The notes under the pieces were generated by a model. The model was not told the DNA's origin and searched no databases. It saw only the letters and a program-made list of their open reading frames with translations. The translations under genes and the position numbers were made by a program. From positions 68,014,001 to 68,078,000 of the forward strand of contig OZ287750.1 in the NCBI GenBank assembly GCA_965649765.1: a DNA stretch of 64,000 bases, read 5' to 3'. Shown in pieces: positions 930-64,000 of this stretch. Within the stretch, counting starts at the first letter, position 1, and the number at the start of each line of letters is the position of its first letter. The DNA is from Bispira polyomma. Taxonomy: Eukaryota.

Positions 930-1614
930 TTTGATGCTATTGTCATTACGTTCTGTCTGATAGGTCTTTTCTTATTCCAGGCCTGTCTTAACACACATAG
1001 GCAGGCTATGAAAACTTTTCACAAATTTTATGATTTTGGCGGCCATCTTGAATTTCCACGTCTTTTCCAGAAAAATGTCTTCTATATCATGAATGGTGCG
1101 AGATGGAGCGATTTTGACCTCATTTTTGGGCTATCAGGCATCTGGTTGAGGGGCTATGAAAACTTTTCACAAATTTTATGATTTTGGCGGCCAGCTTGAA
1201 ATTCTGGTTCTTCTTCGGAAATGTCCGCTATCTCCTAAACGGTGCGAGATAGATTGATTTCGACCTCATTTTTGACCCACAGGGCATCTTTTTCGAAGTC
1301 TGACAACTTTTCACAAATTTTAGAATTTTAGCGGCCTCCTGAATTTCCGCATCTTTTCCGGAAAAATGTCTGCTATCTCCTAAACAGTGCGAGATAGAGC
1401 GATTTCGACCTGATTTTTGGCCCACAGGGTATCTTGTTCAGAGTCTGACAACTTTTCACAAATTTTATGATTTTGGCTACAACTACAACCTACCCTTACA
1501 AAATCATACATACCTCACATTTTTATCAAGCTAACACCTTCATCTAATACAAACATCTATCAAACATTCTCCTGATCATCTGCCGAAGTGGCCCCCTGGG
1601 CCACTCTTATCTTG
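930..1614. mobile_element. Helitron/Helentron-like non-autonomous element with internal ~147-bp tandem repeat and terminal hairpin
   Basis: aacttttcacaaattttatgattttggc recurs at ~1012, 1161, 1305, 1451. Hairpin gtggccccctgggccac-tcttatcttgtt at ~1588-1616; the same terminus occurs at ~13384-13412. Confidence 0.55.
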
Positions 1615-2153
1615 TTTAGAGTAGTATGACTTTCCTTTCTTTAGAGTAGTATGGCTTTCCTTTATTCAGAGTAGTATTGCTTTCCTTTATTTAGAGTAGT
1701 ATGACTTTCCTTTATTCAGAGTAGTATGACTTTCCTTTATTCAGAGTAGTATGGCTTTAGTTTATTTAGAGTAGTATGACTTTCCTTTCTTTAGAGTAGT
1801 ATGGCTTTCCTTTATTAAGAGTAGTAGTAGTATGGCTTTCCTTTATTCAGAGTAGTATGGCTTTCCTTTATTCAGAGTAGTATGGGTTTCCTTTATATAG
1901 AGTAGTATGACTTTTCTTTATTTAGAGTAGTATGACTTTCCTTTATTCAGAGTAGTATGGCTTTCCTTTATTCAGAGTAGTATGGCTTTCCTTTATTTAG
2001 AGTAGTATGACTTTCCTTTCTTTAGAGTAGTATGGCTTTCCTTTATTTAGAGTAGTATGACTTTCCTTTATTTAGAGTAGTATGACTTTCCTTTCTTTAG
2101 AGTAGTATGGCTTTCCTTTATTCAGAGTAGTATGACTTTCCTTTATTCAGAGT
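1615..2153 (+). repeat. 25-bp minisatellite (~21 copies, AGTAGTATGACTTTCCTTTATTCAG) ending in the EIPR1 acceptor
   Basis: Directly visible; the last unit supplies the acceptor at 2150 and the first exon bases AGT. Confidence 0.97.
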
Positions 2154-2250
2154 CCTCTGGCAGCCTTCAGGAGAGAGCAATGAAGTAATAACAGTCACTG
2201 ACAACCAGCTTATTTTGTGGGACCTACAAGTGTCTGAAACCAGTGTCAAG
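2151..2250 (+). CDS. EIPR1: EIPR1/TSSC1 internal coding exon (VLWQPSGESNEVITVTDNQLILWDLQVSETSVK)
   Basis: ttcag acceptor at 2150, gtgact donor at 2251. Translation resembles EIPR1 segment VVWEP...ILLWDLQ. Phase 0 joins the next exon. Upstream exons lie outside the window. Confidence 0.9.
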
Positions 2251-4326
2251 GTGACTAGTATCATCATATTTGTGAGGAATAAGGCAGAGTAGTAGTACAG
2301 TGGCTCTATGCTGACAGACTTTTTTGTGTACATTTACTAGGTTTAGTAAGCGTCAATGATTTTTGCATGATTATGCCAATGCTTATTGGCATAATCATGC
2401 TTTCCTGGAGAAAGGGGATAGTGGAAGAACTTTGGTTACGGATGGTTACAACGTGTCCACAGGGTAATCTATGAACCTGTAGGGAGTTGTGCTCTTAAAT
2501 TTGGTATATATATATATATTCACTTTTTTGTCTTTAGTTGGTCCAAAATTAATTTGGTGTGATTATATGCAGTATAGTAGAAGTTTTCAAGTTTTATATA
2601 TTGGGATCCTCAGATTTGATTGAAGGGTTCATTACAGCCCCTTTCAAATGGTTTCAAAAGGAATTTATAATTTACATGACAAACATTAGGTTTGGGAAGA
2701 TATATACTATATATATATACATACTTTGGTTAATGGGTGGTTGTGGATGTAAGGAATATAAAATTTGCCACCATATGAAATTTGCAACCTAGAAAATGTT
2801 GTGTTTTGGGTAGAATTGTGGTAAATATTTGCTTAAATTGATATTTTTGTGACTAATTTGCCTTCCTTACCAGTTATGTTTTGCCAGTTTTAAGTTATTT
2901 GGCTTAAATTTTAGGGGTGACGAAGTTTAGATACAGGAGCAAATTTTAGATTCCTTATCAAGCTGAAAAAAAAAATATATATAGTGAACCCAATATATTG
3001 CATACAGGTTAACTGGAGTATTTTAAAGGATAAAAATTACAGAAGCTATATGTGTCAAAATAGGAATAAACTATATGGGGTCAGAAATGGATGGTTTTTG
3101 ATGGCAGGAAATATTTTTTTTCGTTTAGTAACAATTATAATTGAACTAAGTGTACCAGTGTAGCGCTAAAAAAAGTGTGTGGGGATACAAAATATGGCAA
3201 GGGGGCTTGCCAAATTTTTGTATCCCCTTGCAAAATAATGTATCCCGTGGAAACAAATAAATTTATTCTCTGACTACTTATATATGTGTATTATTTTAAA
3301 ACTTATAAGCCATTTTAGCTGAGTGCTATTTTATTTACCTTTTGTGATTTAGATTATTAAAGGATTCAAGTAAGTGTGACTAAAATAATGAATCTATGTA
3401 TACCTTTTGTGATTTGTAAAATGTTTGTGCATAGAGCAGCGACAGTTTAGCAAAAAAAAAATCTGTAATTGGATTAAACATGGGCTTTGATTAGCAAGGA
3501 ATTAATTTAAGTGATAGATTTGTTTGGGGTGCTATAGTGGCTTCTGTACTGATGATTAGTACTTTCTTTTGTCTATAGGGATAGTAACTAGTGGTTCACT
3601 ATCTTCGGACTAATTTTGGACGTTTTGCAAGCTATAACAGCTAAAAATGAAAATATTAAAATTGGAAAATAAATTATGGTTTGGTCGTTTCGAGAGCTGT
3701 CAAAAAACCCAATAATTTTGTAGGTAAACAAACTAACTTTTGTGAGCAACCAAAATATATAAAAAATTGTTTTTGTCAGGTTCTAAAGCAAACTTATGTG
3801 AAAAATAAATTATCAAAACATTTTTTAAGGCGATTCGGTTGTTCATACATATGTTTCTGATTTTACTTTGAATTTTGTCTTTGGTTTACCTAACTGGGTA
3901 CCCACAGTAGATAGTTCTCGAAATCCATTTTGATCGCTGACTAGTGACTGGTTTATTATTTCCAGACTTGTCAGTAACTTGCTTTGTAGCGGCATTATTA
4001 TGATATGGCCGCCAGGCCATTCTCCTCTTGTTGTAGAAAAGCTACTAAATATTGACAGATTAAATACTAACTATATCTTTGCTTCATATTCATAACGATA
4101 CAGAAGTAAATGTTATGTGGTTGAGATAAGCAATGTATCCGGATTTTGGGTAGATTTAGGTCTTGCACAATTTCCCTGTCCAAATTGTCTGCACAATAAA
4201 AAAAAATAAAGCAAGAGTAAACATTTTTTCTTGTATATTTATTATATATTTTACAAATTTTGATACTTTTAAAACGGAAGCACTAGGATTAGGATAACCT
4301 TCAGTTTTGCTATCACTGTTCTACAG

Positions 4327-4463
4327 CAAGTGTCCTCCGCATGTGTGGAAGGTAAAGGTCAGCCCAAACTGACCACTGGTGCGTGGAGTCCTCACCACAA
4401 CTGTACACAAGTAGCTACAGCCAATGGTACCTGTGTGAGAGGCTGGGACCTTAGATCTATGAA
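4327..4463 (+). CDS. EIPR1: EIPR1/TSSC1 coding exon ([46 protein letters not shown])
   Basis: ctacag acceptor, AA|gtaagt donor. [23 protein letters not shown] motif typical of EIPR1. Confidence 0.95.
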
Positions 4464-5006
4464 GTAAGTCTGTCTCAGTACCTGTGTGAGAGGCTGGGAC
4501 CTTAGATCTATGAAGTAAGTGTGTGTCAGTACCTGTGTGAGAGGCTGAGACCTTAGATCTATGAAGTAAGTGTGTGTCAGTACCTGTGTGAGAGGCTGGG
4601 ACCTTAGATCTATAAAGTAAGTGTGTGTCAGTACCTGTGTGAGAGGCTGGGACCTTAGATCTATGAAGTAAGTCTGTCTCAGTACCTGTGTGGGAGGCTG
4701 GGACCTTAGATCTATGAAGTAAGTGTGTCTCAGTACCTGTGTGAGAGGCTGGGACCTTAGATCTATGAAGTAAGTGTGTCTTAGTACCTGTGTGAGAGGC
4801 TGGGACCTTAGATCTATGAAGTAAGTGTGTCTCAGTACCTGTGTGAGAGGCTGGGACCTTAGATCTATGAAGTAAGTGTGTCTCAGTACCTGTGTGAGAG
4901 GCTGGGACCTTAGATCTATGAAGTAAGTCAGTCTCAGTACCTGTGTGAGAGGCTGGGACCTTAGATCTATGAAGTAAGTGTGTCTTAGTACCTGTGTGAG
5001 AGGCTG
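4427..5006 (+). repeat. 51-bp minisatellite (11.4 copies): last 37 nt of the EIPR1 exon plus GTAAGT donor and intron start
   Basis: Directly visible; explains the spurious minus-strand ORF 4392..5066. Confidence 0.98.
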
Positions 5007-5273
5007 AATAATATTTTTGGTTGGTTTGTAGCTGTAGGGTTTACATTCAAAGTCATAAGTATACAACTGTCCTAAGCGATGTAAAATGTGTAATAATGAA
5101 AGTGATCAAGTCTGCCACCTTTGTTGTACAACTTCATGAAATGAAATAAAAAGAAGAAGTTTAGAATGAATAACTTATGAAGAGTAGAGGATACACTGAT
5201 CTGTAGTGTTTGTGTGGCTATTACCTTGTGTCAGATTATTTATCCAGCACTTATTATATTTCCTATGTTTCAG

Positions 5274-5441
5274 ACAAGCTTTTACTATAGAGAATGCACA
5301 TGGTCAGCTTGTTCGAGATCTGGATTTCAATCCCAATAAACAGTATTACGTGGCAACGTGTGGAGACGACTGTAAAGCCAAGTTTTGGGACATCCGTAAA
5401 GCCAGCACACCTCTTAAAGTCCTGTCAGATCACTCACACTG
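5274..5441 (+). CDS. EIPR1: EIPR1/TSSC1 coding exon ([56 protein letters not shown])
   Basis: tttcag acceptor, TG|gtgagt donor. Highly conserved WD40 repeat, in ORF 5206..5445. Confidence 0.96.
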
Positions 5442-8791: not shown

Positions 8792-11764
8792 GAAGCGTTT
8801 ATCAAATGATGATCCTAATTTAGGCATATTTTGGACTTTGAACCTCTATAACTCCACCAGTTTTCAACATTTTTAAAATGTTAGTGGCTCAACTAATAGG
8901 TATGGCATGCATTTATGATTCCACCAAATATTATGGCCATTGTATATATAGAAATATTTAATATGTTTATTTTTCCTTCTGTGATTGGGCTTAACCCAGT
9001 GATCAAACTATGATCCTATTTGTGGCCAAGTGACAGTGTGAACTTTTCACTGCTTGCATTTTATATGTTATGCCAAATATGAGACAAATATTGCCAATTC
9101 AGTATTATACGTAATATTTTATGTACGGAAAGGTGGGGGAAGAGAGGCAAAAATGGAAAAAACACATGTATTCTAAATAATTCTACTATTTATTTATACA
9201 TAGCATATTATATTCAATGGCTGATCTATTTTGTTCATTGTAAATGTTGTAGCCCAACTTACAATTTGGCCAACCTTAACATGAGCTATAGCCCAACTTA
9301 GGATCATAAGTTTGTCAGCCTATCTTAAGTTGGACCACCAGCCCATCTTACTAGCCAATCTTAAGATTGGCCAGGAAAACTAGCAAAACTTGAGATTGGA
9401 TTAAGATTGAAAACTAGCCCAACTTGAGATTTAATACGCAAGCCGTTCTGTCCCTTTTCGTGAGTCCATCAACATATCAGCAAGGAATCTCACTAAATAG
9501 GGACAGATTATTTGATCTATGAATTGTGGTAAAGTCCAATAAAGAAATTGAATTATAATTGCTGATCGGTGGATACTTTGGCTTAGCGTTGGCTAGGCCG
9601 CCGCCGCCGTAGAGAGATTTTTGTCGTTAACACTCTCAGCGGAATACTAGACCAGTTAGCTTAGCCAAATTTACAGGATATCTTTATTGGGAGGTAAGCT
9701 TCTCTGCGACTGAAATTAGCCTCATTCTGAAAAACAAGACGGCCGCCATTGGCATTTCTTTTAAAATTATCCACCTTTTTAGAGAGATTTTGGCCGTTAA
9801 CACTCTTAGCAGAAAACTAGACCAGCTAGCTTCACCAAATTTGCAGGATATCTTCATTGGCAGGTAAGCTTCTCTGCGACTGAAATTAGCCTCATTTTGA
9901 AAAACAAGATGGCCGCCATCGGCATTTCTTTGAAAACTACCCACCTTTTTCTACTGGCTGGTTCTCGTAACTAGAAGGTTAAATCTCTTCATAGGTGATA
10001 TGTGTAATAGATATATATGTCCTCTACAAGCATGCAGACACTTTACCTTGAAGCTCTTCATTGAAGGTCATTCACGGAGCGCCAAAGTACCCCATATAGC
10101 AAACTTTAAAAGTGCCTATATCTCCCTTATTATTGGTCCTAGAGGTTTGGTATGCGAAGCCTACCTATAGGAAATCATAGGCTAGGAATCTTCTGACGTG
10201 GTCAGATTTGACCTTAGATTCCTCATTCTAGGTCAAACAAGATATCCAAACTTAAAAATGCTTATAACTTGCTTATTATTGGTTCTAGAGGTTTGGCATG
10301 TGAAGCCTACCTATAGGAAATCATAGGCTGGGAATCTTCTGACGTGGTCAGATTTAACCTTAGATTCCTCATTCTAGGTCAAACAAGATATCCAAACTTA
10401 AATGTGCTTATAACTTGCTTATTATTGGTCCTAAAGCTTTGGCATGTGAAGCCTACCTATAGAAAATCATGGGCTGGAAATCTTCTGATGTGGTCATGTT
10501 TGACCTTTGGCCCCTCATTTAAGGTCAAACAAGGTATCCAAACTTAAAAGTCCTTATAACTCGCTTATTATTGGTCCTAGAGGTTTGCATTGTGAAACCA
10601 ACTTGTAGGTAATCATGGGCTGGGAATCTTCTGTTGTGGTCAGATTTGACCTTGGGCCCCTCCATCAAGGTCAGACGAGGGTAGTTAAACTTAGAGTGCT
10701 TATAACTCGCTTATTATTTGTCCTACAGTTTTGAGATGTAAAAGCAACCTATAGGAAATCATGGGCTAGTAGTCTTCTCATGTGGTCAGGTTTGACCTTG
10801 GGCCCCTCCTTCAAGGTCAAATGACAATAGCCAAACTTAAAAGTGCTTATAACTCGCTTATTATTGATCCTACAGGTTTCAAATGTAAAACCAACTTATA
10901 GGTAATCATGGGCTGAGAATCTTTTGATGTGGTCAGATTTGACCTTGGGCCCCTCCTTCAAGGTCAGACGAGGGTAGCCATAGCTTGGGTGCTTCCTACC
11001 TAGGGTGTTCTGTCTTTCTGGTGGATACAAATATGCATCGGTTTTCCTATGCGCTAGGTCTAGTTGTAATTATGACTTTATGCTGTCTATATAAATCAAA
11101 CCCTACAGTGTCATACCCTATAAGTCAAGATGGCTACTTGTAAAGTTAAAAACTATTTTTCTATGATATGTTCCTGCGTATTATGTTCCAATCTCAACTT
11201 TTGCTAGTTTTCCTGGCTGGTGGTCCATCTTAAGATAGGCTGGTAAACTTATAATCCTAAGTTGGGCTACAGCTCATCTTAAGGTTAGCCAAATTGTAAG
11301 TTGGGCTACAATATTTACAATGAAAAAAAATAGATCAGCCATTGAATACAATATGTTATATGTAAATAAATAGTAGAATTATTTAGAATACATGTGTTTT
11401 TTCCATTTTTGCCTTTCTTCCCTCACCTTTGTGTACATATAATATTACGTATAATACTGAATTGGCAATATTGTCCCATATTTGGCATAACATATAACAT
11501 GCAAGCAGTGAAAAGTTCACACTGTCACTTGGCCATAAATAGGATCATAGTTTGATCACTGGGTTTAGCCCAATCACAGAAGGAAAAATAAACATTAAAT
11601 ATTTCTATACATACAATGGCCATAATATTTGGTGGAATCATAAATAAATCCCAAACCTATTAGTTGAGCCACTGACATTTAAAAAATATTGAAAACTGGT
11701 GGAGTTATAGAGGTTCAAAGTCCAAAATATGCCTAAATTAGGATCATCATTTGATAAACGCTTC
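8792..11764. mobile_element. Foldback/MITE-like element with ~600-bp inverted arms (8792-~9400 and ~11187-11764), TA flanks
   Basis: gaagcgtttatcaaatgatgatcctaatttaggc... is the reverse complement of ...gcctaaattaggatcatcatttgataaacgcttc; arms align over hundreds of bp. Confidence 0.88.
9560..11065 (+). mobile_element. Helitron/Helentron-like element with ~146-147 bp internal satellite (~6 copies), nested in the foldback element
   Basis: aaacttaaaagtgcttataac period 146-147 from 10101 to 10980; 3' end gcatcgg...atgcgctaggtctagtt shared with the copy at 20885-21928. Confidence 0.75.
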
Positions 11765-15208: not shown

Positions 15209-15361
15209 GATTTGGAGTGTGCGTTACAACCACTTCCATGACCAGTTGGTGTTGACGTCCAGTAGTGACAGTCGTGTGGTGCTGACCAATGCCATGTCCA
15301 TCTCTTCAGAGCCATACGGTCACCTAGTGGAGGATGAGGAGGGGGACCAAGACAAGTCGGG
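15209..15361 (+). CDS. EIPR1: EIPR1/TSSC1 coding exon ([51 protein letters not shown])
   Basis: ttgcag acceptor, GG|gtatga donor. Phase 2 on both sides is consistent with neighbouring exons. ORF 15132..15374. Confidence 0.94.
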
Positions 15362-15610: not shown

Positions 15611-16048
15611 ACAGAAATATGTCTCATTTCTGATAGTCTACACAGACACATGTCTCGTTTCTGATAGTCTACACAAACACATGTCTCGTTTCTGATAGCC
15701 TACACAGACACATGTCTCGTTTCTGATAGCCTGCATAGACACATGTCTTGTTTCTGATAGCCTACACAGACACATGTCTCGTTTCTGATAGCCTACACAG
15801 ACACATCTCCCGTTTCTGATAGCCTGCACAGACACATGTCCTATTTTCTGATAGCCTGCACAGACACATGTCTCGTTTCTGATACCCTGCACAGACACAT
15901 GTTCCATTTCTGATAGCCTTCACAGACACATGTCCCTTTTCTGATAGCCTGCACAGACACATGTCCTGTTTCTAATAGCCTGCACAGACACATGTCCCAT
16001 TTCTGATAACCTTTACAGAAACATGTCCTGTTTCTAATAGCCTGCACA
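15611..16048 (+). repeat. 31/32-bp minisatellite (~14 copies, ACAGACACATGTCTCGTTTCTGATAGCCTGC)
   Basis: Directly visible. Confidence 0.96.
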
Positions 16049-16137
16049 AAAGTAAGTCCAGTTTGTGATGGTCTGTGTCAAAATGGCAGGTGTACCTGGT
16101 ATGTGTCAGCGACTCTGTGTTCTAGATGTCATTGGAC

Positions 16138-16836
16138 TCTGTTTAAGGTGTATATAAGTGTATGTCACTGGTCACTCTCTGTTGTAGGTGTATATAAGTG
16201 TATGTCACTGGGCTCTGTCTGTTGTAGGTGTATATAAGTGTATGTCACTGGTCACTCACTGTTGTAGGTGTATATAAGTGTATGTCACTGGTCACTCACT
16301 GTTGTAGGTGTATATAAGTGTATGTCACTGGTCACTCACTGTTGTAGGTGTATATAAGTGTATGTCACTGGTCACTCACTGTTACAGATATATATATATA
16401 TATAAGTGTAAGTCACTGGTCACTCTCTGTTACAGATATATATAAGTGCATGTCACTGATCTCTCTCAGTTACAGATATATATAAGTGTATATCACTGGT
16501 CACTCTTTGTTCTAGGTGTATATGAGTGTATGTCACTGGTCACTCTCTGTTCTAGGTGTATATGAGTGAATGTCACTGGTCACTCTCCGTTCTAGGTGTA
16601 TATGAGTGAATGTCACTGGTCACTCTCTGTTTAAGGTGTATATAAGTGTATGTCACTGGTCACTCTCTGTTCCAGGTGTATATAAGTGTATGTTACTGTC
16701 ACTCTCTGTTCCAGGTGTATAAGTGTATGTCACTGGTCACTCTCTGTTCCAGGTGTATATAAGTGTATGTCACTGGTCACTCTCTGTTCCAGGTGTATAT
16801 AAGTGTATGTCACTGGTCACTCTCTGTTCCAGGTGT
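16138..16836 (+). repeat. 40-bp minisatellite (~17 copies, GTGTATATAAGTGTATGTCACTGGTCACTCTCTGTTCCAG) ending in the acceptor of the last EIPR1 exon
   Basis: Directly visible. Confidence 0.97.
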
Positions 16837-17007
16837 GGTGAGCCTCTTAAGGACGGAGTGGTAGGGACGTATGAAGAACATGAAGACTCGGTATACTCAG
16901 TGGCCTGGTCTGCCGCTGACCCCTGGCTATTTGCATCACTCAGCTATGACGGCAGACTGGTCATCAACAGAGTGCCCAGACAGACCAAGTACAAGATACT
17001 TCTCTAG
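16833..17007 (+). CDS. EIPR1: EIPR1/TSSC1 last coding exon ([57 protein letters not shown])
   Basis: ttccag acceptor, TAG stop 17005-17007. C-terminus matches the EIPR1 family; AATAAA-like signals near 17120-17190. Confidence 0.96.
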
Positions 17008-20884: not shown

Positions 20885-21928
20885 CACCAGAGTTTTTCGG
20901 TGAATACTATGGATTAGTCATCGTTACTCCGCTGCGTCAGTGTGTGTAGAAAATTTTACCGTTACCGCTCTTCTAGGAAAACTTTTACACTTAGACTCTT
21001 GAAATTTACAGGAAATGTCTTTATTACAAAAGCTTGCCTAGGAGTAATTTTGGCCTCATTTTGAAAAAACTAGATGGCCGCCACGGGCGTTTCTTTGAAA
21101 ATAATCAGGCTTTTAACTGTGTTTCTCAGCTGTAGAAGGTTGAATCTCTTTGTGGGTGATATGTTTAACAGATATACATGTCCTGTATAAGCATGCAGAC
21201 ATTTGACCTTGAATCTTCTCATTCAAGGTCATCAACAGAGTGCCAAAGTACCCCAAGTGACCGATTTGGGCCAAACTTAAAAGTGCCTATATCTCGCTTA
21301 ATATTGGTCCTACAGGTTCAGGATCTGCAACCATTCAATAGGAAATCATGAGCAGGGAATCTCTTGATGTGCCGTGATTTGACCTTGGGCCTCTCCTTCA
21401 AGGTCAAACAGAGATGACCAAACCTAAAAGTGCCTATATCTCGCTTATTTTGGGTCAAACAGGTTTTGGATGTCAAACCAACCTATAATAGAAAATCATG
21501 GCATGGGAATCTTTTGATGTGGTTCGATTTGACCTTGGGCCCCTCGTTCAAGGTCAAATTCGGATAGCCAAACTTAAAAGTGCCTATATCTCGCTTATTA
21601 TTGGCCCAGAGGTTTGGAGTGCCAAACCAACCTATAGAAAATAATAGGCTGGGAATCTATTTATGTGCTCAGATTTGACCTTGGGGCCCCTCGTTCAAGG
21701 TCAAATGCGCATGGCCAAACTTAAAAGTGCCTATATCTCACTTATTATTGGTCCCACAGGTTTACAATGTCAAACTCACTTGTACCATTTAAGGCTTTAG
21801 CATAAATGCCCAATAGGAAATCATAGGCTTCTAGCTTGGGTGCTAGATAGGGTGCTTGCTACCTAGGGTGCTTTGTCTTTTTGGTGGATACAAAAATGCA
21901 TCGGTTCTCTGATGCGCTAGGTCTAGTT
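20885..21928 (+). mobile_element. Second copy of the Helitron/Helentron-like family with ~147-150 bp internal satellite (~4 copies)
   Basis: Colinear with 9560-11065; 3' hairpin GCATC-ggttctct-GATGC followed by CTAG. Confidence 0.78.
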
Positions 21929-23129: not shown

Positions 23130-23870
23130 TTTGTTGCTTGGAATGTGGAGCTAGACGAAGGAAGGTTATATTTCGCAGAATTTTTCAAGCTACTTTGGCG
23201 GCTGTGGCAGGCATAAATGTTTTGGGTGTCCCACAGGCAAAACCCATGCATGGATTTTCACCAAATTTTTAGGATATATTTACCGTAACAGGATCTAGAG
23301 CTGATTAGGTTTTGGGTGGCATCTGGCAACAACTGTTGCCATGACAATGCTTTTAAGATTTTTGGGGTCTTAAACTATATGGGTGTTATAAAGGCTAAAA
23401 CCAATGCATGGATTTTTACCAAATTTCTGAGATATGTTTATCCCAAGAGGATCTACAGCTGATTAGGTTTTGGGGGTTAACTGGCAACAATTGTTGTCAT
23501 GGCAACGCTTTTAAAATTTTGGGATCCTAAACTTTGTAAGTGTTTCACAGGCTAAATCCATCCATGGATTTTCACTAAATTTTTAGGATATGTTTACCCC
23601 AAAAGGATCTAGCGCTCATTAGGTTTTGGGGGTATCTGGCAACAACTGTTGTCATGGCAACACTTTTAAGATTTTGGAGTCTTAAACTGGGTGGGTGTTA
23701 CACAGTCCTAAACAATGGATGGATTTTCACCAAATTTCATGATAGCTTTGGGTTCTGTATACTTCCAACGTTTAAACTTACTCCTTACATTTTACCAAAT
23801 CTCAATGTTGTTGCCCATTTAGTTGTACCTGCGGGCTGGTCTTCCTTCCTGCCGAGGCTGGCTATTTTTA
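23130..23870 (+). mobile_element. Interspersed element with 157-bp internal tandem repeat (~3.5 copies), Helentron-associated-like
   Basis: catggattttcaccaaattt recurs at ~23249, 23406, 23563, 23718; GC-rich terminal segments. Confidence 0.6.
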
Positions 23871-28224: not shown

Positions 28225-28473
28225 TTTTGTATCAGTAGCCTGACATGGATCTGATGTCTATGTACATGTAGTTCACTTTGTATCAGTAGCCTGACATGGA
28301 TCTGATGTCTGTGTACATGTGGTTCACTTTGTATCTGTAGCCTGACCTGGATCTGATGTCTGTGTACATATAGTTCGCTTTGTATCAGTAGCCTGACCTG
28401 GATCTGATGTTTTTGTACATGTGAGGATGTTCTGTGTACATCTAGTTCTCTTTGTATCGGCAGGTTGAGATGG
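28225..28473 (+). repeat. 51-bp minisatellite (4 copies plus diverged terminal copy containing acceptor 28463)
   Basis: tttgtatcagtagcctgacatgg units align to the terminal tttgtatcggcag|gttgagatgg. Confidence 0.9.
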
Positions 28474-28544
28474 GAGTGGCAGGAGGAAGAAGACTCAAAG
28501 CCAGGGCTGCGTCCCTGCAGTACTTGTCTACTATGCTACGTTCT
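28464..28544 (+). other. Candidate upstream exon of the MYT1-family transcript with ATG at 28470 (MGVAGGRRLKARAASLQYLSTMLRS)
   Basis: ctctttgtatcggcag acceptor, T|gtaagt donor, GC-rich, GAG ATG G context. Preceded by a junction-derived array. Confidence 0.55.
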
Positions 28545-31049
28545 GTAAGTCCACAGATATCTGTGCTCTGAGTATTTTAACCCTTATTGTAACCTCAGTG
28601 AGTTATCTCTGGCTTGCGGGGGATAGTTATTCCCCAAATCAGGTGGCCGGGCACTGATGCAAGATTTTGTATCCCTCAATATGTGTGTGGGAAGATACAA
28701 AATATCCTAAAGAGGGTTGTGCCATTCTATATTACTTTTCCATATGTAGTACACCCTGTGTATCCTTAGTGTAACTATGTTATGTGGGATTCACACTAGG
28801 ACGGTATGAGACATTATGAAAATGGCCTTGTGGCAAGGGGAACTTTAAATAAACTTCCCTTAACTTCAGCTTCCTTCACGAACCTTCTAGTGTTGGCCAT
28901 GCTCACCAAGGTGGAAAAGTCTTTTCGAGTATTTCCATGTCCCTACTGTAAGTCCTCCATGCCAGTAATCCTCTGTTTCCACCAAGGTTTGATTTAACAG
29001 GGTGGGCTTTATGTTAACTGTAAACTGCAGGGCCCGTATTCAATGAAAGGTCTTGAGCCCAAACGTAGGCTAAGTCCAGGCTTAAATCTAAGACTTTTGT
29101 CTCAGCTACGTTTCAGGCCTAAATGGTATTTACAAAAGGAAGCTTAGCTCAGTATGTGTTAAGACAAAAGTCTTAACTTTATATTGTTTTATTTACAATA
29201 TTACACAATATTATTTACATTTTTACATACACTAATATACTGTATAATTATTCAGGCCTATATGAACATCCCAAAGTTTAAAAAAAAGAATATCAATTCA
29301 CAAATTTTTAATTCGTTAGACTTTGACTTAAGACTGACTAAGCCCCTTCAGATAATATATGATTCAATATGCCAGAAATTATACGACATTTTGTTTGATT
29401 AATGACAGGTTGTTTAATATTTAATATCATACTAGGTTAAATGTTTATAATTTATTATACATTGCAAAGGTACAATGCTTTATTTGTAGAAGTTAAGTAG
29501 AAAAGCTGGAGATTTTTTACTGTAAAGTTAAGCCCAGCAACTTCTTGTATTAAAGTTAAGCCCTTGGCTAAGCCAAAACTTATGCTTAGCAACTTTGTGA
29601 ATATTGCCATTTCTAAGTCTTAGCCATTTTTTCCCAAAAGTTAAGACAAAAGTCTTAACTTTAAGCCTAAGTCCCAGAATGAAGGCCGCCCAGAAGTCCT
29701 GCTCCTGCTTGATGCTATTTTGTAAGTTGTTGTTATATGGCTAGGTTTTTGAGCTTTAGGTTTGTAGCTAAATCAGTAATGAGTATGCATACATTTTGTA
29801 AATTTCACTTCTAACTCAAATCAAAGGTTGAAAAACTAGTATTTTGTCGGCTCCTTTCCCTGTTACTTTAGGACTACAAACAACACTTAAGAACTTGTGA
29901 AATTAGTCAAAGTTAGATTGCCATATTCCACTTACCTATCTTACTGGTATGTTGGTAAAATGCTGTTGTTAACTATTTACTGTATTGTACCATGTACAAT
30001 ACACCATTTCTTCAGAACTCTTGTTTTTGTGGTATTTTTTGGCCAACAAAGGACCCACATGACTTCATTTAAAACCATTTTATGTTTGCCTGTCAACTTA
30101 TCTCTTATTTCCAAAAGGTAATACATTACAATTTTATAGTGTAAAGTTAACATTAGCTTCAGAAATGTATGGAACAAATAATAAAGATGTTGTAATTATT
30201 CTTGTAGGGAAAAATCCGCAAAAAGCCAGTGGTAGTAAAACGTAAACTGACACACACTCAAGTTACCAGTGGTAAAAGTTCCAGAAAAAGAAACAACACA
30301 AAGGACAAACATGTGACAGGTAAGAAATTACTTAGGGAATAATTAGTTACATTTATGTGAACTAGGCTGATGCTCACTGAGAGTGATTGTGTGATGATGC
30401 AATACAGATTTAGATGGAGACTCACTAAGGTCTTATGAGATGCCATGAAGAAATAATAAGATTAATTGGATGCATTAGCGTGAAATTAGTTTTTGTGTCC
30501 CCTACACTGTAATAGAAATGACTGTGTTTGTTTGATATTAGTTTTGTTAAACTTGTTGTATCTTAATAATTGTAAGTCAGTAGACTACAGCAGTTGGTCC
30601 AAGGTATCATGAGGCCTAAGGAGTAAGGAGCATACAGTTCTGGTTTAAGCCCAAATTTACCTTTGAGCTTATGCAGTGACCATTGTATTAAACGTTTTGT
30701 CAGGCTTATTAGTGTTATTGAATGTCTTAGAAGTCCTAGAAGTCCATGAAAAGATGTCATTCTCACTTTGGTATCTTTGAGGTGTAAAGAATCTTTAGAT
30801 AGGCTTTGTAGAAATATGCCAACATTGAAATTTTGGAGGTCATCTTAAATTTTTCCAATGGTAAAAGTTTAAACGTCAAATATCAAAATTTTACTGAAAA
30901 TACAAAATAAAGAAAACCACATACAATAATAAACACCTAATAAAACAATGATATATTTAATATCATTATTTCCCATTACACTGCGTGGAATATAAATATA
31001 TATATATATCACATTCTAAAAATGTCAAGGACTAAGGTGTTAACATTTG

Positions 31050-32113: not shown

Positions 32114-33364
32114 TAGATGCTCCCTACTGCATAGGAGTAAGGGTTATAGATGCTCTCTACTGCACAGGAGTAAGATTCATAGATGCTTCCTACTACACAG
32201 GAGTAAGAGTTATAGATGCTCCCTACCACACTGGAGTAAGGGTTACAGATGCTCCCTACTGCAGGAGTAAGAGTTATAGATGCTCCCTACTACAGGAGTA
32301 AGGATTATAGATGCTCCTTACTACACAGGAGTAAGGGTTATAGATGCTCTCTACTGCACAGGAGTAAGATTCATAGATGCTTCCTACTACACAGGAGTAA
32401 GAGTTATAGATGCTCCCTACTACAGGAGTAAGGGTTATAGATGCTCGTTACTACACAGGAGTAAGGGTTATAGATGCTCCTTACTACACAGGAGTAAGAT
32501 TCATAGATGCTCCCTACTACACAGGAGTAAGAGTTATAGATGCTCCCTACTGCACAGGAGTATGAGTTATAAATGCTCCCTACTGCACAGGAGTAAGAGT
32601 TATAAATGCTCCCTACTACACAGAAGTAAGGGTTATAGATGCTCCCTACTACACAGGAGTAAGGGTTATAGATGCTCCCTACTACAGGAGTAAGGATTAT
32701 AGATGCTCCCTACTACAGGAGTAAGAGTTATAGATCCTCCCTACTACAGGAGTAAGAGTTATCGATGTTCCCTACCACACAGGAGTAAGAGTTATAGATG
32801 TTCCCTACTACATAGAAGTAAGGGTTATAGATGCTCCTTACTACACAGAAGTAAGGGTTATAGATGCTCCCTACTACAGGACTAAGAGTTATAGATGCTC
32901 CCTACTGCACAGGAGTAAGGGCTATAGATGCTCCCTACTACACAGGAGTAGGAGTTATAGATGCTCCCTACTACAGGAGTAAGGGTTATAGATGCTCCCT
33001 ACTACACAGTAGTAAGGCTTATAGATGCTCCCTACTACACAGGAGTAAGAGTTATAAATGCTCACTACTACACAGAAGTAAGGGTTATAATTGCTCCCTA
33101 CGACAGGAGTAAGGGTTATAGATGCTCCTTACTACACAGGAGTAAGAGTTATAGATGCTCCTTACTACACAGAAGTAAGGGTTATAGATGCTCCTTACTA
33201 CACAGAAGTAAGGGTTATAAATCCTCCCTACTGCACAGAAGTAACGGTTATAGATGCTCCCTACTACAGGAGTAAGAGTTATAAATGCTCTCTACTACAC
33301 AGAAGTAAGGGTTATAAATGCTCCCTACTGCACAGGAGTAAGGGTTATAGCTGCTCCCTACTGC
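32114..33364 (+). repeat. 33/31-bp minisatellite (~38 copies, TAGATGCTCCCTACTACACAGGAGTAAGGGTTA)
   Basis: Directly visible; source of many spurious ORFs. Confidence 0.97.
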
Positions 33365-36076: not shown

Positions 36077-36146
36077 GGAACTGAAACTGCTTCAGCATTA
36101 TTATCACTATTTCATAAGTAGAAACTTAAAGTAAAACATTGAACCT
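36077..36146 (+). other. Candidate 70-nt exon (GTETASALLSLFHK* then untranslated)
   Basis: ttttactttgtag acceptor; CCT|gtgagt donor is the first unit of the 41-bp array. Stops occur in all three frames. Confidence 0.45.
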
Positions 36147-36762
36147 GTGAGTGGCTTCTGTGGTGTAGTGCTAACTTGTTTGAACCTGTGAGTGGCCTCT
36201 GTGGTGTAGTGCTAACTTGCTTGAACCTGTGAGTGGCCTCTGTGGTGTAGTGCTAACTTGCTTGAACCTGTGAGTGGGCTCTGTGGTGTAGTGCTAACTT
36301 GCTTGAACCTGTGAGTGGCTTCTGTGGTGTAGTGGTAACTTGCTTGAACCTGTGAGTGGCCTCTGTGGTGTAGTGCTAACTTGCTTGAACCTGTGAGTGG
36401 CCTCTGTAGTGTAGTGGTAACTTGCTTGAACCTGTGAGTGGCATCTGTGGTGTAGTGGTAACTTGCTTGAATCTGTGTGGGGCCTCTGTGGTGTAGTGGT
36501 AACTTGCTTGAACCTGTGAGTGGCCTCTGTGGTGTAGTGGTAACTTGCTTGAATCTGTGTAGGGCCTCTGTGGTGTAGTGGTAACCTGCTTGAACCTGTG
36601 AGTGGCCTCTGTGGTGTAGTGGTAACTTGCTTTAATCTGTGTGGGGCCTCTGTGGTGTAGTGGTAACTTGCTCTAACCTGTGAGTGGCATCTGTGGTGTA
36701 GTGGTAACTTGCTTTAACCTGTGAGGGGCCTCTGTGGTGTAGTGAGCCTCTGTGGTGTAGTG
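36139..36762 (+). repeat. 41-bp minisatellite (~15 copies, GAACCTGTGAGTGGCCTCTGTGGTGTAGTGCTAACTTGCTT)
   Basis: Directly visible; each unit carries GTGAGT or a decayed variant. Confidence 0.96.
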
Positions 36763-41698: not shown

Positions 41699-44600
41699 AG
41701 TCATGTCCTGTCCTGTTGCACTAAAACGGAAAAGGGAGTTTGAATCAGTTGTGGAACAAAATAGCCATACAGCTATATCTGAACCTCCAACTAAAAGAAC
41801 ATGCAAGGATGCAGACTCGAGAAACTCTAAAACTACTGAAGTCAAAGAGCTGCTAAAGGTAAAGAGAAGAGTTCTTTTCAGAGACAGTGCAGGTTTGAAA
41901 GTAACTTCCGAGAGCACTGGCGATAGAACAATAAAAGAAACCCCAGTATCTGAATCCAGTATAACACCTGTAAAAGACTCCAGACAGTGTAAACCAGCTC
42001 CTCAGAGTGTGGTAAACAAAAAGTCATACTCACAAAACAAATGTAAATCAGACCCAAAACAAGATAGAGTGGATTCCCAAAAAGTTTCCAGTAGAAATGG
42101 GCATGGCAGACGTTCAACAAAATCATTAGTAATGCTCACTCATAAAGATATAAAGTTGAAACCAGAACTAAAGGTGAATCAGCAAAAAATGAAACTCAAA
42201 GCTGGAAGCATTAAGACAGCAGTTCATTGTAAAAACAAAGCTATCACCCAATCTGATGGCATCAAATCAAAATGCATAAACAGCGGAAAACTGAAAACAT
42301 TAGCAGTCACAAGGTTATCATCCAGGTCCGCATCCGGGGGTAAAGGTCAAACTGTAAAGACAATCAATGCTATCAAAGTCAGTAGGAGTAGTGAAAACAG
42401 GAAATCCAATCAAACCAGCTCCTTATCTACAGCTCATGTATCATCAGTACATAATCACATAACAGAAAAGGTTTTGTCAGTTTCTTCATCTGATGATCTA
42501 CTGAAAAGAGAGGCAGAGACAAAAGCATTTAGAAATCAGGTGCAAAGAGGTAATTCTATTAATGTAAATCAAACAGGTAGTAGTTACCAACCTTCTCAGA
42601 AGAGTGTAGAAAGTGCATGGAAAGATCAAATTAAAAGTGAAGGCAAAGCAGATGTTGTCGTTGAAGGAAGATTCCCTAAACAGAATGTAGAAAAGAATAG
42701 TATACCAAAGCAGGGTACAGAAGATACAGTTACAAAAGTAGTACATCTGAAACAAAGTAATACTGATGATGATAATAGAAGATTTAATCAGTCATATACC
42801 AATCTTGAACCTAGTCAACAAGTTGCTCAACATCCAGAATTACAAGATGATCAAGAAAAATGTCTTACATCATTAAACACAAAAATAGAAACCCAGATGA
42901 CCATTGACCTGGAAAATACTTCACCTGAAGAAACCAACAGTCCATTGTCAGCACAGTCTGTTGTAAGTAATGACGCAGAGCAAGAAATAAGAGAATCTGA
43001 AACTAAATTGGCAGCATCTATAGAAGGAGATGTGAAGTCTGCTATAGGTGTGATCCATGTTAAACAGCAGACCATTTCTGAAAAGGAAAATGAGAAGCTA
43101 GAACAGAGTGAAGGTCAGGAAAACAAGACTTTACTTAGAAGTGATGAAAATTTCACCTGTGAAGATCAAAATGAAGCTCGAAAATGTACAAGTATTAACA
43201 ATGACATGTCTCTGATACAAGAACAAGGTGATGCAATTGATGGTGTCTTGTCTCAGCTGAAGTATTTAACACAAGGGGGTGTCACTGTAAAAGAAAAGTA
43301 TATCACTGAAGAGGTAGTTTCAATTAAACACTCCCCATTACAGAGAAATGTGGAGAAAAATGATTCAAGTAAAGATCTATCTTTAACAAGAGATTCACAG
43401 TCACAGGTTACACTCAAAACAGTGGAAACTAACTCTGGTAGTGAAGGTGTGCCAGATAAGTGTCAAAATCCAGCAGACACTAAAAGCAAATCTGTGACAA
43501 CTAGAGAAAGACTTGTAAATATGCCAAATATTGTAAAGACATCAGACAATGTGTGTAAAGGCAACTTTACTATCACGCGGCCCGAAAAGGGTGAGAATTC
43601 TACTTCAGTCATTCCAAGCAGTTCTAAGAGTACTCCTGTCAGAAGTAAGCCAGCACCTGGTGAAATAACTCAGACTGAGTGTCAAGTTACTGACACCAGT
43701 ACAACAGATTCTAGTCAATCCAACTCAAGTTTGCTGGTTACCAAACTAAAGGATGAATGTATATCTAGTCAAGATAATAACCCAATTTGCTCAAATGATC
43801 ATGGTAACAGTAAACAGATGTCAAGTAGCTCTGACATTAGTGAACAAAACAAGTGTGTATCTTGTCAGCCAACAAGTATTAACAACACAGAAGTCATGCA
43901 TAGCAAAGCAAGATATTGCAAAGACAAACTTCTAAAGGTTGAGTGTATATTTAGTCAATTGTCACAAGACTGTTTAAACCAAAAAGGTGTAAACCAAACA
44001 GACATACAGGAAAATTCCTGTGATGTGTCAGACATTAACAAGTTAAATTGTGTGATACAAAGGGATGAATGTATAACTGGTAAGATACTCTTATCTAATA
44101 TTTCAAATGTTACAGACAAAAGAAATGGTAATTTGGATTCAGGTATTCCCAATGGTATATCTGAAACTGATGAGGTTCTACATATTAAGAACATTCCTGA
44201 CACTTACAGTGGTACAGGTTGCAAGCAAAATGATGGTATAGCTGTTTCTTCTGATTCTGTCTTGAAAGAGGCCAGTGAACAATTCTCTCCACAAACAAGC
44301 CATGATAAAATTACTACCCCAGAACTAGTACAAGACAACAAAAATATGACAGGAAGAAACAGAAATGATACGTTCACTAACAATGTGCCAAGTTTAACCA
44401 CAGCACATGAATCCGGCAATGATTTGAAAGAAGTGAAGTATACTGACACAGATGTTGTGCATGTTCTGTCAGAGCACAGAAACAATGATCAGCTAAAATT
44501 TACAAAATTAAATATTCCAAATTGCCCTACTAAAGAAAGAGTCAGTCATATGAATCTGCAGGTTAAATCTTCTTCTCACAGAGTTGTAAGTGTGGATAAA

Positions 44601-46413
44601 GATGAAAACAAAATGATTGGAAGTGAAAACACATGTAGGGAAGGCGGTAGAACTACTGACTCTGGTGAACCTGATAGACCAGAAATCAAGGTGCAACACC
44701 AAGAACAGAAAAGCAGTCAAACATCTGCAAATATAAATGGAGGTCTAACAGTGTCTAACACAAGTTTACATAGAGGTGTAGAGTCTAACACGAGTACACA
44801 AGGTGGTGTCCAGTCTAACACAAGTACATGGGGAGGTGTAGAGTCTATCACAAGTACACAAGGTGGTGTAGAGTCTAACACAAGTACATGGGGAGGTGTA
44901 GAGTTGAACACAAGTACACACGGCAGTGTAGAGTCGAACACAAGTACACACGGCAGTGTAGAGTCGAACACAAGTACACACGGCAATGTAGAGTCGAACA
45001 CAAGTTCACACGGCAGTGTAGAGTCGAACACAAGTACACACGGCAGTGTAGAGTCGAACACAAGTACACAAGGCAGTGTAGAGTCGAACACAAGTACACA
45101 AGGCAGTGTAGAGTCAAACACAAGTACACACGGCAGTGTAGAGTCGAACACAAGTTCACACGGCAGTGTAAAGTCGAATACAAATACACACGGCAGTGTA
45201 GAGTCGAACACAAGTACACACGGCAGTGTAGAGTCGAACACAAGCACACAAGGTGGTGTAGAGTCGAACACAAGTACACAAGGCAGTGTAGAGTCGAACA
45301 TAAGTACAAAAGGTGGTGTAGGGTCTAACTCAAGCTCAAGGGGAGGTGTAGAGTCTTTCACAAGTACATGGGGAGGTGTAGAGTCTAACACAATTACACA
45401 TGGATCAGCACTTGTATTTGTCACTGCAGAAAAGCAGCAAGCTGATACTGCTTCAGGGGGATGCATTATAACATCCACCACTACACCAGTAGGTATGAAG
45501 AGCACAGCCACAACCTTAAGGGGTAAAGACACATCAGTCAATGAAGGGTTGGCTGTAGAAACCTGTCAGAGTATGCAGGAAATTAAAGAAGTCTCGGAAA
45601 GCTCAGTCGATGCATGCAGAGATAAAGAAGAACTCACTACTGAGGTTGGTGTAGAAGAAGAGAAAGAAAATAAGGACATCATTCCTCAGAGTACACCACC
45701 TGAACAAATAACCACACAACTTATGTCTCCCTCACAGTCTGACTCTGAACCATCAGTGAGTTTACGACAAAGAGATGGTTCTGTATCAGAAGTTGAAGTT
45801 GGTTCTGCATTGAAAGTAGATGAAGCTCAAACTATTTCAACAAGTAAAATAAATGAAAACATAGTACAGAGGCTGAATTTCAGTGACTTAGGTAAGAGTG
45901 AAAACATCCCCTTTCAGTTTAAGCCTGTACCAGAAATTAGTCGTGAAGAAATATTATTTGATAATGAAAAGCTTTCTCCAATAATGGCCAAGAAAGAAAT
46001 TGAAGCTTTAAAGGTAACTGATGGTAATCCTTTATTGTGCAGCTTAACAAAGGATAATGGAAATGCAGAGCCAAAGGAGATTGTTCATTATAAAGAGATT
46101 GAGATTGTAAAGGACAGAGAGGTTCATAAAGAGGCAGGAACCATGGCTGAAGTGCCAGCAGACTGGACTAAGTCTTGTAGTCAACTACAGCAGCGTGAGG
46201 CAGAATCAGCTCGGACACTCTTAGAACTGGCCAATCAACTGTCACTCTCAGATTACAGCTACTTAGTGCAGTCAGGACAGACGGGAGGAGACAAGGCTAT
46301 ACTGGTCCAAACTGGCTCACAGACTGTGGCAGAAGGCAGGTTACCCACATCTACTGCTGGCCTGCTTACTCCAGGAAACATACGAGCTGCTCTGGCAGAA
46401 CTGACAAAGAAAG
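41699..46413 (+). CDS. MYT1L: MYT1-family giant exon (4715 bp): end of ZF1 (VMSCPVALKRK) plus ~1560 aa low-complexity S/T/E/K/N-rich region
   Basis: ttttccag acceptor completes the Ser codon and ZF1. Uninterrupted ORF 41571..46544; AAAG|gtgagt donor, phase 1 matches the next exon (KK-ESKCP). Confidence 0.9.
44752..45401 (+). repeat. Coding 30-bp minisatellite (~21 copies; SNTSTHGSVE-like decapeptide)
   Basis: In frame within the giant exon. Confidence 0.96.
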
Positions 46414-46743: not shown

Positions 46744-48701
46744 TGTTACAGAGAGTAAGTGTCCCTCTCTATTGTATCCTGTCCTCTGTTTACAGAGAGT
46801 AAGTGCCCCTCTCTATTGTATACTGTCCTCTGTTTACAGAGAGTAAGTGTCCCTCTCTATTGTATACTGTCCCCTGTTTACAGAGAGTAAGTGTCACTCT
46901 CTATTGTATACTCTCCCCTGTTTACAGAGAGTAAGTGTCCCTCTCTATTGTATCCTGTCCTCTGTTTACAGAGAGTAAGTGTCCTTTTCTATTGTATACT
47001 GTCCTTTGTATACTGTCCCCTGTTTACAGAGAGTAAGTGTCCCTCTCTATTGTATACTGTCCTCTGTTTACAGAGAGTTAGTGTCCCTCTCTATTGTATA
47101 CTGTCCTCTGTTTACAGAGAGTAAGTGTCCCTCTCTATTGTATACTGTCCCTTGTATACTGTCCTCTGTTTACAGAGAGTAAGTGTCCCTCTCTATTGTA
47201 TACTGTCCCCTGTTTACAGAGAGTAAGTGTCCCTCTCTATTGGATACTGTCCCCTGTTTACAGAGAGTAAGTGTCCCTCTCTATTGTATCCTGTCCTCTG
47301 TTTACAGAGAGTAAGTGTCCTTTTCTATTGTATACTGTCCTTTGTATACTGTCCCCTGTTTACAGAGAGTAAGTGTCCCTCTCTATTGTATACTGTCCTC
47401 TGTTTACAGAGAGTTAGTGTCCCTCTCTATTGTATACTGTCCTCTGTTTACAGAGAGTAAGTGTCCCTCTCTATTGTATACTGTCCCTTGTATACTGTCC
47501 TCTGTTTACAGAGAGTAAGTGTCCCTCTCTATTGTATACTGTCCCCTGTTTACAGAGAGTAAGTGTCACTCTCTATTGGATACTGTCCCCTGTTTACAGA
47601 GAGTAAGTGTCCCTCTCTATTGTATACTGTCCCCTGTTTACAGAGAGTAAGTGTCTCTCTCTATTGTATACTGTCTCCTGTTTACAGAGAGTAAGTGTCT
47701 CTCTCTATTGTATACTGTCCCCTGTTTACAGAGAGTAAGTGTCCCTCTCTATTGTATCCTGTCCCCTGTTTACAGAGAGCAAGTGTCCCTCTCTAGTGTA
47801 TACTGTCCCCTGTTTACAGAGAGTAAGTGTCCCTCTCTATTGTATACTGTCCCCTGTTTACAGAGAGTAAGTGTCCCTCTCTATTGTATACTGTCTCCTG
47901 TTTACAGAGAGTAAGTGTCTCTCTCTATTGTATACTGTCCTCTGTTTACAAAGAGTAAGTGCCCCTCTCTATTGTATTCTGTCCTCTGTTTACAGAGAGT
48001 AAGTGCCCCTCTCTATTGTATACTGTCCTCTGTTTACAGAGAGTAAGTGTCCCTCTCTATTGGATACTGTCCCCTGTTTACAGAGAGTAAGTGTCACTCT
48101 CTATTGGATACTGTCCCCTGTTTACAGAGAGTAAGTCTCCCTCTCTATTGTATACTGTCCCTTGTATACTGTCCCCTGTTTCCAGAGAGTAAGTGTCCCT
48201 CTCTATTGTATACTGTCCCCTGTTTCCAGAGAGTAAGTGTCCCTCTCTATTGTATACTGTCCCTTGTTTACAGAGAGTAAGTCTCCCTCTCTATTGTATC
48301 CTGTCCCCTGTTTACAGAGAGTAAGTGCCCCTCTCTATTGTATCCTGTCCCCTGTTTACAGAGAGTAAGTGTCCCTCTCTATTGTATACTGTCCCCTGTT
48401 TACAGGGAGTAAGTGTCCCTCTCTATTGTATACTGTCCCCTGTTTACAGAGAGTAAGTGTCCCTCTCAATTGTATATTGTATAATGTCCCCTGTTTACAG
48501 AGAGTAAGTGTCCCTCTCTATTGTATACTGTCCCCTGTTTACAGAGAGTAAGTGTCCTCTCTATTGTATACTGTCCTCTGTTTACAGAGAGTAAGTGCCC
48601 CTCTCTATTGTATACATATTGTCTCCTGTTTACAGAGAGTAAGTGTCCCTCTCTATTGGATACATGTTGTCCCCTGTTTACAGAGAGTAAGTGCCCCTCT
48701 C
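46744..48701 (+). repeat. 44-bp minisatellite (~42-44 copies, AGAGTAAGTGTCCCTCTCTATTGTATACTGTCCCCTGTTTACAG) ending in the ZF2 exon acceptor
   Basis: Directly visible; the unit includes the first 18 exon nt; contains a 336-bp higher-order duplication. Confidence 0.98.
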
Positions 48702-63522: not shown

Positions 63523-63771
63523 TGCTCACATATAGAGTACACAGGACCTGTTTCTTATTTCAGTGCTCACATATAGAGGACACAGGACCTGTTTCTTATT
63601 TCAGTGCTCACATATAGACTACACAGGACCTGTTTCTTATTTCAGTGCTCACATATAGAGTACACAGGACCTGTTTCTTATTTCAGTGCTCACATATAGA
63701 GTACACAGGACCTGTTTCTTATTTCAGTGCTCACATATAGAGTACACAGGACCTGTTTCTTATTTCAGTGC
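63523..63771 (+). repeat. 41-bp minisatellite (6 copies + TGC, TGCTCACATATAGAGTACACAGGACCTGTTTCTTATTTCAG) ending in acceptor 63768
   Basis: Directly visible; near-identical copies. Confidence 0.98.
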
Positions 63772-63867: not shown

Positions 63868-64000
63868 GTAAGATAGCTCACAGAATCCTACCTTATGCTG
63901 ACTACAGTCTATATAGTATATATCAGAGAGTATATTATGAGGAGACCACAGTCTATAGAGTCTATACCAGAGAGCAGATTATCTCTGTCACCGAGTGAGT

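What the first reader, a model, noticed from the sequence alone, without database searches (positions are those of the whole stretch)
4427..5006. Donor-side array: 11 copies of exon end + GTAAGT, each a potential in-frame 36-nt pseudo-exon
The unit is the last 37 coding nt plus 14 intron nt. Simple exon extension to a later donor reads ATG AAG TAA (stop). The unit junction also creates ...(c/t)AG|TACCTG...ATGAA|GTAAGT, a 36-nt phase-2/2 cassette encoding [12 protein letters not shown], a duplicate of the WD40 strand. Coding DNA is the main content of this satellite, showing that the array derives from the gene and not vice versa.
Basis: partly seen in the sequence, partly recalled or inferred. 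Interest (0 to 1): 0.75.

Follow-up and report, generated by a model that had tools for sequence, protein, structure and literature searches.

The report
Splice-donor "mirage" minisatellite in EIPR1
In an invertebrate EIPR1 gene, the end of one exon plus its splice signal is copied eleven times in a row into the intron, a known kind of repeat ("mirage") whose extra copies are likely ignored by the splicing machinery and are unlikely to act as mini-exons.

Summary
The array is real: 11 copies of a 51-nt unit plus a 19-nt partial copy (4427-5006), built from the last 37 nt of an EIPR1 exon and the first 14 nt of its intron. The exon part is conserved EIPR1 coding sequence, so the array came from the gene. 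The 36-nt pseudo-exon idea is poorly supported. Only 10 cassettes exist, the first lies 15 nt from the donor, and the second has a stop. The junction AG scores like a random intronic AG, and 102 of 103 homologues have no insertion there. No RNA run was available, so donor use is inferred, not shown. The array is one of six in the window that straddle a modelled splice site (6 of 15 arrays; 0.42 expected under a strict, post-hoc null); the other five are acceptor-side. This architecture is known as amphioxus "mirages" and the human F7 intron-7 VNTR, where normal splicing is reported. This scan has noted it before in other genomes (urchin, annelids). Verdict: a new member of a known kind. Why such repeats cluster on exon edges remains open.

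The parts
4327..4463 (+). EIPR1/TSSC1 coding exon B (137 nt, ends in phase 2)
   Evidence: tblastn of homologues; Pfam PF23609 E 0.00096, below the curated cut-off as a fragment; open five-exon frame
4427..4477 (+). Unit 1: last 37 nt of exon B + first 14 nt of the intron, with the inferred authentic donor GT at 4464
   Evidence: in-frame join to 5274
4478..4987 (+). Units 2-11: ten intronic copies, each with an intact GTAAGT pseudo-donor and a junction AG; mean pairwise identity of the 11 units 96.2%; 7 of 51 columns vary
4988..5006 (+). Partial 12th copy (19 nt, all exon-derived), ending before its donor
4465..4467 (+). In-frame TAA met by any extension of exon B to a later donor
5274..5441 (+). 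EIPR1 exon C (168 nt), the partner acceptor
1615..2153 (+). Sister array: 25-nt unit x21 over the acceptor of EIPR1 exon A (starts 2151; about 3 exon nt per unit)
16137..16836 (+). Sister array: 40-nt unit x17 over the acceptor of the last EIPR1 exon (starts 16833; about 4 exon nt)
46746..48701 (+). Sister array: 44-nt unit, about 44 periods, over the acceptor of a MYT1-like zinc-finger exon (starts 48684; about 18 exon nt)
60159..60465 (+). Sister array: 54-nt unit x5.7 over the acceptor of a MYT1-like exon (starts 60440); units are in frame and stop-free
   Evidence: this exon's start rests on frame continuity, not on a homology hit at the edge
63523..63771 (+). Sister array: 41-nt unit x6 over the acceptor of a MYT1-like exon (starts 63769; about 3 exon nt)

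Best explanation
This is a minisatellite made of the EIPR1 exon end plus its splice donor (a "mirage"), which likely arose by a local DNA duplication across the exon/intron edge and likely grew by slippage or unequal exchange, while the spliceosome probably uses only the first donor and removes the other copies as intron. Shown: the anatomy, the origin from the exon, the stop on any exon extension, and the weak junction acceptor. Inferred: a seeding event that put a short copy of exon sequence 14 nt into the intron (or a longer array later trimmed), leaving the 19-nt partial copy; expansion by ordinary minisatellite turnover; choice of the donor nearest the exon's own acceptor; and removal of leaky products from later donors by nonsense-mediated decay. 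The array would be tolerated, not selected, and is one case of a locus-wide tendency to form such repeats on exon edges.
For: Unit anatomy and in-frame join 4463|5274. Shared variants cluster in neighbouring units (column 48 in units 2-4), as in local turnover. The junction acceptor is no better than random intronic AGs. All 3 exon-part substitutions in the copies are non-synonymous, one a stop. Motif spacing across this junction is 13 residues in 102 of 103 scorable homologues (17 of 120 not scorable). Six of 15 TRF arrays (period >=20, >=3 copies) have a modelled splice site in their exon-side terminal unit, against 0.42 expected (P 1.4e-6). Without the focal array and with only tolerated placements, it is 5 of 8 against 0.44 (P 1.6e-5). 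Precedents: in human F7 IVS7 only the most upstream of 5-9 identical donors is used (PMC1557585); amphioxus mirages are reported not to disturb splicing (PMC3087553 section 16; PMC3902484 passages).
Against: No transcript was seen, so first-donor use rests on homology and precedent. The F7 paper's introduction reports that later pseudo-donors are used in human 6-16 and CBS, so leakage is plausible. All 11 GTAAGT and all 11 junction AGs are intact, although with only 7 of 51 variable columns this is expected by chance. The strict enrichment criterion was chosen after seeing the data; a loose any-overlap null gives P 0.036, and 0.061 without the focal array. The acceptor model was trained on only 16 sites. 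The 19-nt partial copy is too long for chance microhomology, so a one-step duplication does not explain it.
Confidence: 0.8

Rival explanations
1. One reading: junction AG plus the next GTAAGT define 36-nt cassette exons that add a second [11 protein letters not shown] strand to a fraction of EIPR1 proteins.
For: The frame works: phase 2/2, and 8 of 10 cassettes (units 4-11) are stop-free and at least 117 nt from donor 1. All AGs and donors are intact. Tandem repeats can be spliced internally (UBC, PMC10809524, abstract only), and exonisation of mirage units was proposed as a hypothetical model (PMC3087553).
Against: Acceptor at the 30th-47th percentile of decoys, with poor pyrimidine content and an AG 6-10 nt upstream. 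Its tract overlaps the preceding GTAAGT. Adjacent cassettes are 15 nt apart. A stop sits in unit 3. The spacing is invariant in 102 of 103 homologues. The junction is AG|TA, not the AGGT of dual-specific sites.
Confidence: 0.05
2. The pseudo-donors act as a length-dependent dial: some transcripts use a later donor, hit the TAA and are degraded, so copy number tunes EIPR1 level.
For: Every later donor yields a premature stop. The donors are identical at -2..+6. Use of second or third pseudo-donors is reported for human 6-16 and CBS (as cited in PMC1557585).
Against: F7 data show strong preference for the first donor. No sign of selection on the array. Neither copy-number variation nor expression could be measured here.
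Confidence: 0.1
3. The array is an assembly artefact or a dispersed repeat that happened to land at the exon edge.
For: No read or contig spanning the whole array was examined (one search covered unit 1 only).
Against: Units carry private and shared variants. Contig ends and depth in X2/X3 fit a real repeat starting at 4427. The unit is mostly conserved EIPR1 coding sequence and is unique in the window.
Confidence: 0.03

Closest known systems
Amphioxus 'mirage' minisatellites (globins BflGb6/BflGb9, Adh3, troponin C, PGBD5). Read: PMC3087553 section 16, passages and reference list; PMC3902484 passages. The original Adh3 paper (Canestro 2002, PMC117041) was not held and is cited second-hand.
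   Same: Tandem copies of an exon/intron boundary on either the 5' or the 3' side; several per locus; unit 51 nt, within the 10-72 bp range given for Adh3; splice signals kept in the copies.
   Different: A different animal (phylum unresolved). Normal splicing, length polymorphism and somatic instability, reported for mirages, could not be tested here.
Human F7 intron-7 37-bp VNTR (Borensztajn 2006, PMC1557585; abstract, introduction, discussion and passages read); also 6-16, CBS, lamin B2 and PDGF as cited there
   Same: The first unit spans the exon/intron edge, so the donor is repeated identically downstream.
   Different: The F7 unit has 4 exon nt + 33 intron nt; this one has 37 exon nt + 14 intron nt, is a multiple of 3, and has a junction AG. 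F7 donor choice was tested experimentally; this one was not.
UBC tandem dual-specific (AGGT) splice sites (Duan 2024, PMC10809524; abstract and outline only)
   Same: A tandem repeat with both AG and GT signals per unit.
   Different: Here the AG and GT are 36 nt apart, not one AGGT site; the acceptor context is poor; and the copies lie in an intron behind a stop codon.

Membership tests
Mirage minisatellite | Head-to-tail minisatellite-size units | tested here: met
   51 nt x 11.4, 96% matches
Mirage minisatellite | Unit spans an exon/intron boundary of the host gene, with the terminal unit being the real boundary | tested here: met
   37 exon + 14 intron nt; boundary fixed by homology and frame
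Mirage minisatellite | Unit is locus-specific, not a dispersed repeat | tested here: inconclusive
   Unique within the 64-kb window and mostly EIPR1 coding sequence; no whole genome held
Mirage minisatellite | Several independent arrays on exon edges of the same locus | tested here: met
   6 of 31 modelled splice sites, 3 in EIPR1 and 3 in the MYT1-like gene
Mirage minisatellite | Normal mRNA splicing is preserved | not testable with these tools
   No RNA run was listed
Mirage minisatellite | Copy-number polymorphism or somatic instability | tested here: inconclusive
   Depth ratio about 10.5 in X2/X3 and 3.7 in X1, but contig depth is no copy number
Cassette (pseudo-)exon array | A usable 3' splice site ahead of each cassette | tested here: not met
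   Score, pyrimidine count and AG spacing all fall outside the range of the 16 modelled acceptors; small in-window model
Cassette (pseudo-)exon array | Frame-preserving, stop-free cassette | tested here: met
   9 of 10 cassettes are stop-free and phase 2/2
Dual-specific splice-site array (UBC type) | AGGT motif at unit boundaries | tested here: not met
   Junctions read AG|TA

The most novel reading that the evidence does not exclude
Mirages are not just tolerated: a process tied to exon edges (splice-site-coupled pausing or R-loops, or repair that slips where allelic homology ends) makes them, and they can write back into the gene. The first base of this array is the very base that gives Gly where 97 of 102 homologues have Asp (4 Glu, 1 Asn, no Gly), and it equals the G of the junction AG. 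In the neighbouring MYT1-like gene a stop-free 54-nt acceptor array could add 1-5 Cys-rich 18-residue repeats.
Probability: 0.15. Interest if true: 0.65.

Novelty: new member of a known kind. Interest (0 to 1): 0.2.

Why it matters
By itself, little: it is a clean extra example of a named repeat type. Such arrays mislead gene predictors and short-read aligners. They are also natural test beds for splice-site choice among identical sites: 11 donors here, and about 40 acceptors in the MYT1-like intron. The open question is why repeats form on exon edges; PMC3087553 (2010) calls the mechanism unclear. My library searches listed no genome-wide study of it, but most subscription papers are not in that library. 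A genome with arrays on about one in five splice sites (6 of 31 here) would suit that question.

Tried and rejected
RNA test: no RNA holder listed; this is no evidence either way. Whole-genome survey: no genome held. DNA contigs laid on 2127-4477: no 4477-to-4427 joint among the 15 joints shown (110 more hidden, output dominated by a high-copy intronic repeat); the stretch ended at unit 1, so copy number and the far flank were not tested. RNA structure hiding the pseudo-donors: z-scores 0.53, 0.71 and -0.46, no better than shuffles, although the unit holds an 8-nt palindrome. Selection on splice signals in the copies: 0 of 8 signal columns vary against 7 of 43 others, too few to tell. Skipping from exon A into a cassette: exon A ends in phase 0 and the cassette starts in phase 2, so a frameshift. 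An 11-nt microexon after the 31-mer array (15611-16048): does not fit the phase-2/phase-2 join of exons D and E. Placing the organism: best EIPR1 identity about 70% (Lingula); a quick tree of 47 of the 120 homologues plus the window left it unplaced, and the careful search was not finished. One homologue with spacing 38 (P0065) looks like intron read-through, not a strand duplication. Earlier scan notes by place and by sequence: nothing.

Full report
Setting. The window is animal DNA holding the 3' part of EIPR1/TSSC1 followed by a MYT1-like zinc-finger gene, both on the + strand. A five-exon EIPR1 model (2151-2250, 4327-4463, 5274-5441, 15209-15361, 16833-17007) reads open to its stop, and an eleven-exon MYT1-like model (40848-63867) gives 2,187 residues with no stop. 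All modelled sites are AG/GT. One MYT1 exon (58526-58621) is optional: the frame is open with or without it. The models rest on homology and frame, not on transcripts. The animal could not be placed: best identity about 70% (Lingula), unresolved in a quick tree. No whole genome is held.

The observation. The array is 11 full 51-nt units plus a 19-nt partial copy, 4427-5006. Unit 1 is the last 37 nt of exon B and the first 14 nt of the intron. Joining 4463 to 5274 gives ...[17 protein letters not shown]..., matching homologues; reading on gives ATG AAG TAA. The units are 96.2% identical on average; 7 of 51 columns vary, 3 in the exon-derived part and 4 in the intron-derived part. Three DNA contig runs from one study were laid on 2127-4477. 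In X2 and X3 a contig identical to 4008-4456 stops 30 nt after the last unique base, and summed depth over unit 1 is about 10.5 times the flank; in X1 it is 3.7 times. This fits a real repeat starting at 4427, but it is no copy number and the runs may be the window's own source.

Origin. The exon part is conserved EIPR1 sequence, unit 1's exon part equals the consensus and the three exon-part changes are private to single copies, and the unit has no real match elsewhere in the window. The partial last copy is 19 nt of exon sequence, too long for chance microhomology. So the seed was likely a short templated copy placed 14 nt into the intron, or the far end was trimmed later (inference). Variants shared by neighbouring units (column 48 in units 2-4) fit local slippage or unequal exchange.

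The pseudo-exon idea. The geometry is right, but the case is weak. There are 10 cassettes, not 11. Unit 2's AG is 15 nt from donor 1, far below spliceosomal intron size (general knowledge; the shortest of 14 modelled introns here is 385 nt), and adjacent cassettes are also 15 nt apart. Unit 3 has an in-frame TGA, unit 4 M>I, unit 6 R>G: 3 of 3 changes alter the protein, which is neutral-looking but too few to prove anything. On a matrix from the 16 modelled acceptors, the 11 junction AGs fall at the 30th-47th percentile of 1,342 intronic decoys; the real sites, scored leave-one-out, are all at or above the 85th. Junctions have 7-9 pyrimidines in 18 nt (real 10-15) and another AG 6-10 nt upstream (real 14-65). 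The spacing across this junction is 13 residues in 102 of 103 scorable homologues (17 of 120 not scorable). Against my reading: every GTAAGT and junction AG is intact, the model is small, and no RNA could be examined.

The wider pattern. Of 15 TRF arrays with period >=20 and >=3 copies, 6 have a modelled splice site inside their exon-side terminal unit: this donor and five acceptors. Expected under random placement is 0.42 (P 1.4e-6). With only placements that spare exons, and leaving out the focal array, it is 5 of 8 against 0.44 (P 1.6e-5; the coding repeat at 44776 and arrays outside the modelled genes were left out of that count). The strict criterion is post hoc, and a loose any-overlap null gives only P 0.036. 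The six units are unrelated to each other, so these are independent local events. Four more minisatellites (15611, 28226, 32114, 36139) sit beside or contain splice-like motifs but have no verified exon.

How it most likely works. The copies lie in the intron and are likely removed with it, the donor next to the exon being chosen. Any later donor leads to the stop at 4465 and would likely feed nonsense-mediated decay. RNA folding offers no special masking. Precedent supports this: in human F7 the first of 5-9 identical donors is the only one used, though the others work when it is mutated (PMC1557585). The same paper cites use of later donors in 6-16 and CBS, so low leakage cannot be excluded.

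What is known. Tandem copies of exon/intron boundaries were named mirages in amphioxus and reported not to disturb splicing, with the mechanism called unclear (PMC3087553 section 16; PMC3902484 passages). The original Adh3 paper was not held; no supplements were read. The anatomical tests for membership are met; normal splicing and length instability are untested. It is not a UBC-type AGGT array (PMC10809524 abstract). Earlier notes of this scan describe the same thing in other genomes (16 notes match, 8 shown); these are unchecked leads and I do not count them as support.

A loose end. The array's first base (4427) is the middle base of a Gly codon where 97 of 102 homologues have Asp and none has Gly; from memory of WD40 structure this Asp is the conserved turn residue. 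That base equals the G of the junction AG. It may be a chance substitution that gave one base of microhomology, or a change made when the array formed. One base cannot decide it.

Verdict. Real, gene-derived, and a new member of a known kind; cassette function unlikely (about 5%). Interest 0.2. The bolder reading, a mutational process aimed at exon edges that can alter the exon, has probability about 0.15 and would deserve about 0.65.

Noticed in passing
window 4426-4428: Gly codon where 97 of 102 EIPR1 homologues have Asp (4 Glu, 1 Asn); the changed base is the first base of the array and is present in contigs of X2 and X3.
   Followed up: partly
window 60159-60465: 54-nt acceptor array is in frame and stop-free; upstream acceptors would add 1-5 repeats of 18 residues to the MYT1-like protein. 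Each copy also has AG, 12 nt, then GTGAGT, where the real exon has GTGAGC. A better candidate for functional use than the focal array.
   Followed up: partly
window 46746-48701: About 2 kb of acceptor copies (41 matched, 40 with AG); each unit reads AG, 3 nt, then GTAAGT, which also stands in the real exon.
   Followed up: partly
window 2360-4032: About 1.7 kb of very high-copy dispersed repeat in EIPR1 intron A-B (summed depth mostly 1e5-1e6 against 10-170 in the flanks; loose ends at both edges), likely a transposable element.
   Followed up: no
window 15611-16048, 28226-28422, 32114-33362, 36139-36744: Four more minisatellites with splice-like motifs in or beside them; they may mark unverified (for example 5') exons. 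A candidate exon with ATG lies at about 28464-28545.
   Followed up: partly
window 52949-53167 and 63897-63984: Two-copy intronic duplications just behind MYT1-like donors (111 nt and 44 nt) that do not repeat the GT.
   Followed up: no
window 41699-46413: A 4.7-kb coding exon in the MYT1-like model, with a 30-nt coding repeat at 44776-45400 and no convincing Pfam match.
   Followed up: no
window 2151-63867: EIPR1 lies next to a MYT1-like gene; I recall EIPR1/TSSC1 and MYT1L being neighbours in human too (from memory, not checked), which would be old microsynteny.
   Followed up: no
window 1009-1477, 9610-10966, 21269-21775, 23223-23737: 145-170-nt satellite-like repeats, none on a modelled splice site among those tested.
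   Followed up: no
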